Below, piece by piece: positions 31,601 through 34,600 of a stretch of DNA of 64,000 bases. How positions within the stretch are numbered: position 1 is the stretch's first letter; each line of letters begins with the position of its first letter. Origin of the DNA: Armatimonadota bacterium (GTDB taxonomy: Bacteria > Armatimonadota > Fimbriimonadia > Fimbriimonadales > GBS-DC); the NCBI GenBank assembly GCA_037444405.1, contig JBBIML010000007.1:59606-123605 (forward strand). Reading direction: 5' to 3'. The position numbers were made by a program.

Positions 31601-34600
31601 TTTTCCAAGCACAAACCCAGTGCAGGCTCAAACTCCTGTTCGGCTTGCAAGGCACATAGAACGGCTTCGTGCTGAAGTTCGTTCTGCCATTCGGACTGAC
31701 TCCAGTTCGGTGGTGGGCATGTGGGTCGGAAGCGCTGAACAGCGCGGCGAATGGCTTTGCGCAGAGCGGGATTGAGTTCAGCCAACTCAGCTCCACCCCC
31801 CCCCGCGAAGTTGCGATGGCAGTTGAGATTTTGCTGGATGCACCGCTTGCTTCTTCGTTCGCTTCTTTGCGGGCATCGCTGACCTCTGCTGGATAAAAGC
31901 AGGATACCCTGTTCAAGACAGGAATGTCAAGGGGAAACGAGGGTGTTCGAAAAATCATCTCTTGCGAGCCGCTTGAGCAGGGCGCGGGTACGGGCGCGGC
32001 GACCGCGCCCCTACTTGACACGGGTACGGGCGCGGTTCCCGCACCCTGTTTTCGAACACCCTCAGGGGGAACGAGGGTGTTCGAAAAATCCATCCAGAGG
32101 CGAGAATACCCCTCACCCCTACCCTCTCCCTTCGGGGGAGAGGGAGTTTATCAGCCCCTCTCTCCCGCGTGCGGGGGAGAGGGGTCGGGTGAGGGGGTCA
32201 TACTTTCCTCTTGGGGGAATCCCGCTCTCAGACCAGCAGGAAGGCGGCTCCCAGAGGTGCAGCAGGTAAAATCTCTTTTACCGATGGAGAGGTTGAGCCG
32301 ATGGTAAGGGTACGATACGCACCAAGCCCGACAGGAGCGCCCCATGTGGGCAACATTCGCACCGCGCTCTTCAACTGGCTGTTCGCCCGTCATCACGGCG
32401 GCAAGTTCATCGTGCGCATCGAGGACACCGACCGCAGCCGCTATGTGCCTGAATCGGAGCGCGAAATCTTAGAATCGCTGCGCTGGCTGGGGCTGGACTG
32501 GGACGAGGGACCCGAAGTGGGTGGTCCGCACGCACCCTATCACCAGTCGCAACGGCTGGAGACTTATCGGCAGATTGCGCACCAGCTGGTGGAGGCGGGC
32601 AAGGCGTACAAATGCTTCTGCACGCCCGAAGAGCTGGAGCAGATGCGGGCACAGCAGCGGGCGCAGGGCGCATCCGTCACGATGTACGACCGCCGTTGCC
32701 GACGCCTCACGCCCGCCGAAGTGCGCGCCCGCGAGGCGGACGGACTGCCCTATGTGATCCGGTTTGCCATGCCGCTGGAAGGCACGGTGGAGTACGACGA
32801 CCTGATTCACGGGCGCACCACCTTCCGCAACGCGCTCACCGACGATTTTGTGATGCTCAAATCGGACGGCTACCCGACCTACCATCTCGCCAATGTGGTG
32901 GATGACCACCTGATGGAAATCACCCATGTGATTCGAGGCGACGAGTGGATTTCGAGCATGCCGCGCCATCTCAATCTCTATAGGGCGCTGGGCTGGGAGC
33001 CGCCCCAGTTCGCGCATCTGCCCCTGCTGCTTGGCGTCGACCGCCAGAAGCTCTCCAAGCGGCACGGCGCCGTGCAGTTCACCGAGTTCATTCGCGACGG
33101 CTACCTGCCCGAAGCCATGTTCAACTTTCTCGCGCTCTGCGGCTGGAACCCCGGCGACAACCGCGAGATTCTCAGCCGCGAGGAGATTATTCAGCTGTTC
33201 AGTCTGGAGCGCGTCTCGGATAACCCCTTCATCTTTGATCATAACAAACTGCTCTGGATGAACGGCTATTACATTCGCCAGCTCAGCCCGCAGGAACTGG
33301 TGGAGCGCTGCCTGCCCTTCCTGCAGGAGGCAGGGCTTCTGCCGCCCGCGCTGGATGACGAGACCCGCGCTTACGCTGAACGGGTCATCCCGCTGGAGCA
33401 GGAGAAGATGAAAACCCTCAAAGATGTGGTGACGCTGACCGACTTCTTCTTCAAAGAGGAGTTCCCGATAGACCAGAGCGCGGTCAAGAAGTGGTATGGT
33501 CTGCCGCACATCCCGCAGATGCTGGAGGAGCTGATCCGGCGGTATGAGGCGCTGGAGCCGTTTGTGGCGCCCGAGATTGAGCGCGTGACACGCGAAGTGA
33601 TTGCCTGGCTGGGTGTGTCGGGCGGGTCTGTGATCCATCCTGTGCGCGTGGCGGTCAGCGGGCGCACGACGGGACCGAGCCTTTTTGAGATGCTGGAAGT
33701 GCTGGGCAAGCCGCGCGTGCTGCGCCGACTCCGCCAGGCGCAACAGTGGGTGTACATAGCATGAGAGACTGGCAGGAGCGATGGAAACAGGCAAATCCGC
33801 CTTCACACCTCCTCTCGATCAGCGATCTTAATCGGGAGGCGGCGGAGGTGGTGCTGGCGCTGGCGCATGCGATGAAACGCGCCACCCGCGCGGGCGCCGA
33901 GCTGTTCCGATTCGAGAAGCCGACCGCCGTCGCGCTCATCTTCGAGAAGCCCTCCCTGCGCACGCGCGTCACCTTAGAAGTCGGGCTGTATCAGATGGGC
34001 GCGCACGGCGTCTACCTCACTCAGTCGGACATCCAGATGGGCAAACGCGAGGCGGTGATGGACATCGCTCGCAATCTGGGACGCTGGGTGCAGGGCATCA
34101 TCGCGCGCGTCTACCACCATTCAGTGCTGGGCGAGCTGGCGCAGTTTGCGGGCGTGCCCGTCATCAACGCGCTCAGCGACCGCGAACATCCCTGCCAGGC
34201 ATTAGCCGACCTGATGACCATTCAGGAGCGCAAAGGCGATCGACCGCTCACGCTGGTGTGGGTGGGCGACGGCAACAATGTGTGCCACAGCTTCATCCTG
34301 CTTGGCACCCTGCTGGGGCATACGGTGCGCGTGGCGACGCCCGAAGGCTATGAACCCGACGAGCAAATTCTTGCGCAGGCACAGCACAACGCTACGCAAT
34401 CGGGCGGGCAACTCCTGCTCACACACAACCCGCGTGATGCGGTCGCCGACGCCGATGTCGTCTACACCGATGTGTGGGTCTCGATGGGCTACGAGACCGA
34501 GCGCGAAATCCGCCTGCGCCATTTCCAGCCATTTCAGGTGAACCGCGACCTGATTCGGCATGCCAGACCCGACGCGATTGTGCTGCACTGCCTGCCCGCC

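What a model noticed while it worked through the whole genome (the two positions that open the first line are those of the whole stretch)
31939..32063. MITE family that inserts just upstream of promoter -35 boxes
A family of 76-192-bp non-autonomous elements has 15-bp inverted ends (GAGGGTGTTCGAAAA) and 9-bp target duplications. It has 11 paired copies (C6:202325, C7:91544, C9:73746, C11:47328, C13:103202, C15:13091, C18:40171, C20:3841, C24:11975, C28:19705, C29:8375) plus solo ends. Insertions lie 2-8 nt from the C-rich edge of outward-facing promoters. The C7 copy is missing in the closest relative.
Evidence so far: - Copies and flanks: calls 38, 39, 61. - Empty site in G002 with a single AGGGGTTGC. 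- 14 of 39 ends abut a promoter, against 28 of 200,000 random positions. - Tandem re-insertion at the same site at C7 and C29. - The element ends are repeated in five relatives.
(Added by a program. Inside this text positions count along the whole contig: contig position 59,606 is position 1 of the stretch shown here. "Call 12" and the like, gene names such as g00115 and contig names such as C1 are that model's own, and its searches are not shown. The text may have been shortened before it was handed on; [...] marks where a part breaks off. The agent that wrote the report below was given it as the finding of a first reader that could run no searches.)

Follow-up and report, generated by a model that had tools for sequence, protein, structure and literature searches.

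The report
Promoter-homing MITE and its transposon
A small non-coding jumping element, and the transposase-carrying element it derives from, land again and again 8-9 bases upstream of the -35 box of ordinary promoters; this habit was known only for an unrelated transposase family.

Summary
Window 31939-32063 is a 125-bp element with perfect 15-bp inverted ends and a 9-bp duplication (8 of 9). It lies 8 nt upstream of a TTGACA-18-TATCCT promoter and is absent from the same site in the closest relative.

- **Copies in G000:** 11 paired copies and 39 ends. 15 to 17 of 39 ends lie 8-11 nt from TTGAC of a full promoter, against 33 of 200,000 random positions and 15 of 19,722 random non-ORF positions.
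- **Relatives:** in five relatives, 90 of 91 end-to-TTGAC gaps (0-30 nt allowed) are 6-11 nt, and 79 are 8-9 nt.
- **Autonomous partner:** A roughly 1.0-kb insertion sequence with the same ends encodes a DDE transposase of the IS4/IS5 superfamily (Pfam DDE_Tnp_1). It is intact in G033, decayed in G001 and G002, and only a 64-residue remnant in G000.
- **What is recognised:** transposase-bearing copies show the same spacing, including in low-GC genomes with no C-tract. The constant feature is therefore the -35 hexamer or the promoter, not the C-rich edge.
- **Closest known behaviour:** TnGBS, ISLre2 and ISKra4, which are Mutator-like transposases inserting 13-17 bp upstream. This is a new variant of a known kind.
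- **Earlier in this scan:** unchecked notes report similar promoter-homing MITEs in at least 19 other genomes.

How the promoter is read, directly or through sigma/RNA polymerase, remains open.

The parts
31901..31930 (-). Host promoter-like site, TTGACA-18 nt-TATCCT, reading leftwards toward the HTH-protein gene
   Evidence: the only promoter-like site found in 31500-32500 (shuffles give a mean of 0.1). It is conserved in G002.
31930..31938 (.). Left copy of the 9-bp target duplication, AGGGGAAAC. Its first base is also the first T of TTGACA on the minus strand.
   Evidence: 8 of 9 identical to the right copy.
31939..32063 (.). 125-bp MITE copy of the GC-hairpin subtype. Perfect 15-bp inverted ends at 31939-31953 and 32049-32063.
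   Evidence: It is 122 of 125 identical to the C29 copy. It is absent from the orthologous site in G002. As a single DNA strand it folds at -42.6 kcal/mol, z = -7.4.
32064..32072 (.). Right copy of the target duplication, AGGGGGAAC
32073..32232 (.). Older, neighbouring element of the second subtype, whose interior consists of CCCTCTCCC/GGGAGAGGG hairpins. The left inverted end is at 32073-32087. The right end is missing in G000; the end coordinate is approximate.
   Evidence: The orthologous copy in G002 is complete and has its own duplication, AGGGGTTGC/AGGAGTTGC.
31243..31785 (-). Gene downstream of the targeted promoter: a 180-aa protein with weak helix-turn-helix matches
   Evidence: The Pfam HTH matches are below the curated cut-offs.
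32301..33764 (+). Glutamyl-tRNA synthetase gene on the other side of the two elements
   Evidence: tRNA-synt_1c, E = 1.1e-110.

Best explanation
The 125-bp element is a non-autonomous derivative (MITE) of a roughly 1.0-kb insertion sequence. That sequence encodes a single DDE transposase, a distant member of the IS4/IS5 (DDE_Tnp_1) superfamily, and is found almost only in Armatimonadota/Fimbriimonadales metagenome genomes.

The transposase, supplied in trans, binds the shared ends (GAGGGTGTTCGAAAA, 18 bp in the full element). It inserts the element through cuts staggered by 9 bp in the DNA immediately upstream of a sigma-70-type -35 hexamer. The duplicated 9-mer ends at, or overlaps by one base, the first T of TTGACA, and the element end comes to lie 8-9 nt from TTGAC.

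Each insertion regenerates the 9-mer next to the promoter, so the site can be hit again. This gives tandem arrays with the newest copy nearest the promoter, as in the window.

Shown: mobility, the partner element, the spacing rule and its conservation across hosts.

Inferred:
- The spacing reflects target choice at the moment of insertion.
- The hexamer or promoter, not the C-tract, is what is recognised.
- Copies with a promoter on both sides and no duplication arose from two neighbouring insertions, or two copies, that later recombined.

Not resolved: whether the promoter is read directly as DNA (my guess, about 0.5) or through bound sigma factor/RNA polymerase (about 0.3).
For: **Mobility**
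- Inverted ends, duplications, and an empty site in G002.
- The promoter next to the C29 copy is empty in G001 and G003, and carries a different element with its own duplication in G002.
- The C7 and C29 copies are 122 of 125 identical.

**Partner element**
- L008 (G033) holds a 1026-bp element with perfect ends and one open frame. Pfam DDE_Tnp_1, E = 3e-8, 34.1 bits against a cut-off of 23.
- Decayed copies with the same ends lie in G001, G002, G037, G038 and G031.
- D123, D202, E260 and K267 are invariant in 13 homologues.
- G000 has only a 64-residue remnant.

**Spacing**
- G000: 15 to 17 of 39 ends against 33 of 200,000 random positions and 15 of 19,722 random non-ORF positions. 15 of the 112 promoter-like sites in the genome are occupied.
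- Five relatives: 91 matches with 0-30 nt allowed gave gaps of 6 (1), 7 (3), 8 (58), 9 (21), 10 (4), 11 (3) and 14 (1). The reversed-pattern control gave 0.
- 79 of the 90 sites with gaps of 6-11 nt also have TA...T 17-21 nt after TTGAC.

**The promoters are real**
- 14 of 17 are followed by an ORF of at least 100 aa within 300 nt.
- One more has a 98-aa ORF (GroES-like by my reading of its N-terminus; no search run), and one more a tRNA His-Lys-Val cluster.

**Transposase-bearing copies share the habit**
- L008 and L009 have promoters at both ends; L007 and L010 at one end.
- L048 is a full copy with a perfect 9-bp duplication and TTGACT 8 nt away.
- 13 of 27 ends in 16 public loci have TTGAC 7-10 nt outside, including loci of 35-36% GC.
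- The genome holding L061 gave 5 further matches with gaps of 7-9 nt.

**Repeated hits at one site**
- Tandem arrays share one spacer: window, C29, L011, and L032 with ATAAGCCCT three times.
Against: - No transposition was observed directly, and no intact transposase is present in G000.
- 3 of 11 paired copies have no duplication. 3 (C6, C9, C20) lie away from any strict promoter match.
- At orthologous occupied promoters, the 9-mer next to the element differs between G000 and G002 by 3-5 bases. I attribute this to neutral divergence and turnover but have not shown it.
- Among non-ORF CTTGAC sites, 0 of 79 without a -10 are occupied against 13 of 46 with one. This fits promoter-complex recognition better than a short DNA motif. 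The ORF calls are crude, however, and the extended motif almost never occurs outside promoters, so direct and indirect reading cannot be told apart.
Confidence: 0.85

Rival explanations
1. Insertion is essentially random, and the pattern is made afterwards by selection. Either only harmless insertions survive, or copies at this exact position are kept because the A/T-rich part of the end (TTTTCGAA) falls roughly 15-25 nt upstream of the -35 hexamer. That is about where UP elements act in E. coli (my recollection; my own numbering), and it might strengthen the promoter.
For: - The element end places an A/T tract, in a 62.5% GC genome, at a fixed distance upstream of the -35 hexamer.
- 13% of promoter-like sites are occupied, so any effect would be widespread.
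- Most surviving copies are intergenic.
Against: - Harmlessness cannot explain why 79 of 91 gaps are exactly 8-9 nt when 0-30 nt was allowed.
- A copy absent from the closest relative already sits at the canonical distance.
- The same site is hit repeatedly.
- The rule holds for transposase-bearing copies in hosts of very different base composition.
- Positive selection would have to act separately at dozens of unrelated housekeeping promoters.
Confidence: 0.07
2. The transposase targets sequences that resemble its own ends. The promoter association arises in this lineage only because the promoter's upstream motif (AACCCCT) resembles the tip of the inverted end (AACACCCT). Tandem arrays would then reflect insertion next to existing ends.
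For: - The element tip and the lineage's promoter upstream motif look alike by eye.
- New copies land exactly between an old end and the promoter.
- End-targeting is known for some other insertion sequences (my recollection; not checked here).
Against: - Related elements in low-GC genomes keep the 7-9 nt distance to TTGAC where the intervening bases are not C-rich, for example L058, L061 and G041.
- The resemblance needs an indel, and I did not test it statistically.
Confidence: 0.05
3. The repeats are not mobile. They are a conserved regulatory palindrome, an operator or UP-like module, that belongs to a set of co-regulated promoters.
For: Fixed position relative to the -35 hexamer. The ends are palindromic around TTCGAA.
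Against: - Target duplications, an empty site, and copies away from promoters.
- Two unrelated interiors between the same ends.
- The same ends flank a transposase gene.
- Copy numbers from 0 to 155 among close relatives.
Confidence: 0.02

Closest known systems
TnGBS conjugative elements, the ISLre2 family and the ISKra4 group (prokaryotic Mutator-like DDE transposases; Guerillot et al. 2014, PMC3942029; I read the abstract and passages found with search terms)
   Same: - DDE transposons that insert at a fixed short distance upstream of the -35 box of sigma-A-type promoters.
- Elements with nearly symmetrical ends are found in either orientation relative to the promoter.
- The paper calls this specificity atypical among prokaryotic transposable elements.
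   Different: - Different transposase superfamily: PF01609 (IS4/IS5-type) here. No PF00872 match in 0 of 5 genomes searched.
- The distance is 8-9 nt, not 13-17.
- Different host phylum.
- Here most copies are MITEs. The word MITE does not occur in that paper's main text.
IS5 and IS4 family insertion sequences (NCBIfam transpos_IS5_2 and transpos_IS4_1; Pfam DDE_Tnp_1)
   Same: - DDE_Tnp_1 domain above Pfam's cut-off.
- Invariant D, D, E and a K seven residues after the E.
- Size near 1 kb with a single frame and a 9-bp duplication. By my recollection this resembles the IS903 group of IS5; not tested.
   Different: - Scores are far below the curated family cut-offs: 33.9 bits against 140. The best E-value among 13 members is 2.2e-14.
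- Only 29 homologues in the 5.8-billion-protein search.
- The frame has no stop inside the element and reads out through the right end.
Bacterial MITEs in general (for example Correia elements and IS-derived MITEs; recalled, plus titles listed)
   Same: Short, non-coding, with inverted ends shared with an insertion sequence, target duplications, many intergenic copies, and structured interiors.
   Different: The interiors are not deletion derivatives of the parent. They consist of modular GC hairpins, and in one subtype of CCCTCTCCC/GGGAGAGGG hairpins that also occur on their own at many places in the genome. Target choice is tied to promoters.

Membership tests
MITE (non-autonomous transposable element) | Terminal inverted repeats | tested here: met
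   15-bp perfect ends in the window copy; 11 pairs in G000.
MITE (non-autonomous transposable element) | Target site duplication | tested here: met
   6 of 11 pairs match at 7 or more of 9 positions in strict register, plus 2 off-register. Null: 3 of 110.
MITE (non-autonomous transposable element) | Ends shared with a transposase-encoding element | tested here: met
   The 1026-bp element in L008 has identical ends and an intact DDE_Tnp_1 frame. It is not present intact in G000.
MITE (non-autonomous transposable element) | Presence/absence polymorphism at orthologous sites | tested here: met
   Empty site in G002 for the window copy. Empty promoter in G001 and G003 for the C29 site.
IS5 / IS4 family transposase | DDE_Tnp_1 catalytic domain with conserved D, D, E and downstream K | tested here: met
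   PF01609, 34.1 bits against a cut-off of 23. D123, D202, E260 and K267 are invariant in 13 sequences. That these are the catalytic residues is my reading, from recalled motif definitions.
IS5 / IS4 family transposase | Score above the curated NCBIfam family cut-off | tested here: not met
   transpos_IS5_2, 33.9 bits against 140; transpos_IS4_1, 16.2 against 115. This is a superfamily member and cannot be assigned to a curated family.
TnGBS / ISLre2 / ISKra4 promoter-targeting elements | Mutator-like (p-MULT) transposase | tested here: not met
   The transposase matches PF01609, not PF00872. PF00872 was found in 0 of 5 genomes.
TnGBS / ISLre2 / ISKra4 promoter-targeting elements | Insertion 13-17 bp upstream of the -35 box | tested here: not met
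   The mode here is 8-9 nt from TTGAC.
TnGBS / ISLre2 / ISKra4 promoter-targeting elements | Insertion at a fixed short distance upstream of sigma-A promoters (the behaviour) | tested here: met

The most novel reading that the evidence does not exclude
The transposase does not read DNA sequence. It docks on promoter-bound sigma factor/RNA polymerase, as proposed but never shown for TnGBS. Its MITEs, parked at the upstream edge of about one promoter in seven, then have two further effects. They supply an A/T tract at UP-element distance, and they act as portable recombination sites that let whole transcription units be shuffled without damage, contributing to the heavily rearranged gene order in this lineage.
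Probability: 0.15. Interest if true: 0.8.

Novelty: new variant of a known kind. Interest (0 to 1): 0.55.

Why it matters
- **Convergence.** Promoter-homing would have arisen independently in a second, unrelated DDE transposase superfamily. That argues the DNA just upstream of promoters is a general safe haven for bacterial transposons, not a peculiarity of one family.
- **A tractable system.** The element is small: a transposase of about 330 residues, 15-18-bp ends and a sharp 8-9 nt rule. That makes it a convenient system for asking how a transposase finds a promoter.
- **Promoter annotation.** The copies mark real promoters in an uncultured phylum, here those of a probable groES, sucC and glnA (my reading of ORF N-termini, no search run) and a tRNA cluster.
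- **Breadth.** This scan's own unchecked notes report similar cases in at least 19 other genomes. The phenomenon may be much commoner than the literature suggests.

Tried and rejected
- **IS256-type partner:** no PF00872 match in 5 genomes.
- **Other DDE_Tnp_1 hit in G000 (C17):** no family end within its locus.
- **Rfam scan of 31700-32400:** only chance-level matches, all below gathering scores.
- **Profile search of the Protein Data Bank:** 0 hits at E up to 10.
- **Sequencing runs:** no RNA holder listed. Four DNA runs from one study hold the stretch, and one may be its source. Their contigs break inside the repeat, and none bridges an empty site. One tandem junction from elsewhere was seen. 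No conclusion drawn.
- **Lookup of this scan's earlier notes by sequence:** nothing.
- **Are elements enriched at synteny breakpoints?** Flanks of 4 of 5 tested copies lie on different, non-terminal contig positions in G002. However, G000 and G002 differ by about 5 breaks in 40 kb of this window that carry no element. The enrichment is not established.
- **Idea that the flanking 9-mer travels with the element:** rejected. Near-identical copies (C7, C29) have different 9-mers.
- **Literature searches:** none for 'Armatimonadetes' with 'miniature inverted-repeat' (0 papers). In the search on MITE, target site and -35 region, none of the 15 listed of 98 describes this family. Subscription journals and ISfinder were not searchable.

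Full report
**What is in the window**

The 15-mer GAGGGTGTTCGAAAA occurs three times in the window: at 31939 (+), 32049 (-) and 32073 (+). Shuffles give a mean of 0.11. The first two bound a 125-bp element. It is flanked by AGGGGAAAC and AGGGGGAAC, which match at 8 of 9 positions. The third begins a second, older element whose right end has been lost in this genome.

Immediately to the left, reading leftwards, is the only promoter-like site in the kilobase: TTGACA, 18 nt, TATCCT. It lies upstream of a 180-aa protein with weak helix-turn-helix matches. On the right is the glutamyl-tRNA synthetase gene.

**The family in this genome**

- All 11 paired copies exist, 76-192 bp.
- There are 39 ends at up to one mismatch and none for the reversed control pattern.
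- In strict 9-bp register, six pairs have duplications matching at 7 to 9 of 9 positions. C6 has a 10-bp one, and C28 has 9 of 10 with a one-base shift. C11, C15 and C24 have none. Only 3 of 110 mismatched flank pairs reach 7.
- Two interior types share the same ends. One consists of GC hairpins in variable number: six copies, with the window copy 122 of 125 identical to the C29 copy. The other is built on CCCTCTCCC/GGGAGAGGG hairpins, which also occur alone at many other places.

**Mobility**

In the closest relative, G002, the orthologous site reads TGTCA|AGGGGTTGC|older element. It lacks the 125-bp copy and one copy of the duplication. There the older element is complete and has its own duplication.

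The promoter next to the C29 copy is empty in G001 and G003. In G002 it carries an element of the other subtype with a different duplication.

Copy number of the ends ranges from 0 to 155 among 30 relatives and is essentially confined to one family of genomes.

**The partner element**

A search for DDE_Tnp_1 in relatives led to elements of about 1.0 kb with the same ends.

- The copy in G033 (L008, 1026 bp, perfect ends) has one open frame. It matches Pfam DDE_Tnp_1 above its cut-off.
- Copies in G001, G002, G037, G038 and G031 are frameshifted, stopped or internally deleted.
- Thirteen homologues share invariant D123, D202, E260 and K267.
- All 13 match NCBIfam's IS5 model and 10 match the IS4 model, always far below the curated cut-offs. 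No solved structure is detectably related by sequence.
- Only 29 homologues were found in the large protein collection. The named ones are Armatimonadota/Fimbriimonadales metagenome genomes, apart from one labelled Chloroflexus sp.; many carry no name.
- G000 itself retains only a 64-residue remnant next to a degenerate end. Its MITEs must therefore have been moved by a transposase that is now lost or unassembled.

**The promoter rule**

Promoters of this genome have a general extended form: aACCCC-TTGACA, about 18 nt, then (G)GTATAAT. Elements are not needed for this form.

In G000:
- 15 of 39 ends have TTGAC-N17-20-TA...T starting 8-11 nt outside the end. Two more have TTGAC at 8 nt with a slightly different -10 spacing.
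- The nulls are 33 of 200,000 random positions and 15 of 19,722 random positions outside crude ORF calls.
- 15 of the 112 promoter-like sites are occupied.

The stronger test needs no gene calls. In five relatives I asked for an element end followed by TTGAC anywhere within 0-30 nt. The 91 matches had gaps of 6 (1), 7 (3), 8 (58), 9 (21), 10 (4), 11 (3) and 14 (1), and the reversed pattern gave none. Of the 90 sites with gaps of 6-11 nt, 79 also have TA...T 17-21 nt after TTGAC.

The promoters are real. In G000, 14 of 17 are followed within 300 nt by an ORF of at least 100 aa. One more has a 98-aa ORF that looks like GroES, and one more a tRNA His-Lys-Val cluster.

Tolerance of intergenic insertions cannot produce a two-base-wide peak.

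**What is recognised**

Transposase-bearing copies follow the same rule:
- L008 and L009 have a promoter at both ends; L007 and L010 at one.
- L048 is a full copy with a perfect 9-bp duplication and TTGACT 8 nt away.
- In 16 public loci that encode a relative of the transposase, 13 of 27 end-like sequences have TTGAC 7-10 nt outside, and 11 of these have a -10 box.
- These include loci of 35-36% GC where no C-tract precedes the hexamer.
- The genome holding one of them gave five more matches with gaps of 7-9 nt using its own end variant.

Within G000, non-ORF CTTGAC sites without a -10 box are never occupied (0 of 79), against 13 of 46 with one. This hints that more than the hexamer matters. 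But the ORF calls are crude, and the full motif hardly ever occurs outside promoters. I cannot separate direct reading of DNA from docking on bound sigma factor/RNA polymerase.

**Tandem arrays and two-sided copies**

New copies lie between the promoter and an older copy, separated by the same 9-10-mer. This is seen in the window, at C29, in L011, and in L032 with ATAAGCCCT three times. It is expected if each insertion regenerates the target next to the hexamer.

Several copies have outward promoters on both sides and no duplication: C11 and C15 in G000, L008, L009, L053, and about six in G001. I infer that two insertions at back-to-back promoters, or at separate loci, later recombined through their identical ends. 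This is not shown.

The flanks of four of five tested copies are not adjacent in G002. But the two genomes are rearranged about every 8 kb even where no element lies, so I draw no conclusion from that.

**Comparison with what is known**

Guerillot et al. 2014 (PMC3942029; abstract and passages read) describe insertion 13-17 bp upstream of sigma-A promoters for TnGBS, ISLre2 and ISKra4, all Mutator-like transposases. They call the property atypical among prokaryotic elements and propose, without proof, contact with the initiation complex.

The present element works like these but is not a member. Its transposase belongs to another superfamily, and the distance is 8-9 nt. My two literature searches found no description of this family. 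ISfinder and subscription journals could not be searched.

Earlier unchecked notes of this scan list 22 similar findings in at least 19 genomes. One is an IS5-family case at 18-19 nt; none shares sequence with this one.

**Verdict**

This is a new variant of a known kind of behaviour. It is of moderate to good interest as an independent origin of promoter homing and as a compact system for working out how it is done.

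Noticed in passing
L008:879-1904 (also L006:877-1898 and L005:1401-2084): The transposase gene has a sharp switch in strand composition. GC skew is about -0.3 to -0.4 over the first 380 nt and +0.35 to +0.7 over the rest, with G near 50%. The intact and the decayed copies both show it. The C-terminal half of the protein is correspondingly rich in G, V, W and R. No explanation.
   Followed up: partly
L008:879-1989: The transposase frame has no stop codon inside the element. It reads through the right inverted end, which encodes ...IFRTPS, and stops in flanking DNA, so the C-terminal tail differs with the insertion site. By eye, the left end carries an inward promoter-like arrangement whose -35 (TTCGAA) lies inside the inverted end, with 18 nt to TATCCT/TATAAA.
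   Followed up: no
G000 genome-wide (for example C8, C9, C11, C29) and relatives: Promoters of this lineage share an extended upstream motif, aACCCC, before TTGACA. Many also carry an inverted copy of the hexamer core a few bases downstream (TTGAC-N6-GTCA, for example TTGACTTTTTTGTCAT), or a shared spacer (TTGACAAAcGCC...GATG.GGTATAAT). This suggests a common factor or promoter classes.
   Followed up: no
window 32088-32232; about 140 places in G000: The CCCTCACCC...CCCTCTCCC/GGGAGAGGG...GGGTGAGGG hairpin module inside the second element subtype also occurs on its own at many sites. I did not test that.
   Followed up: no
window 31806-31814: A homopolymer run of nine C (G on the coding strand) lies between the promoter and the annotated start of the HTH-protein gene. 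G002 has one more base there. The true start codon of this gene is uncertain.
   Followed up: no
window 12001-52000 versus G002: Gene order between G000 and its closest relative (93-96% identity) is broken about every 8 kb.
   Followed up: partly
G000:C18:57268-58041 and G001:C5:65470-66240: The best RpoD-type sigma factor match in G000 and G001 comes as two overlapping pieces (profile positions 1-114 and 90-227) within one open frame of about 450 aa. This suggests an insertion or local duplication in the primary sigma factor.
   Followed up: no
L050, L052, L058, L061: Relatives of the transposase (41-48% identity) lie on contigs of low-GC metagenome genomes labelled Caldimicrobium, Brevinematia and 'uncultured bacterium'. 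This suggests transfer between hot-spring lineages, or mis-binning.
   Followed up: partly
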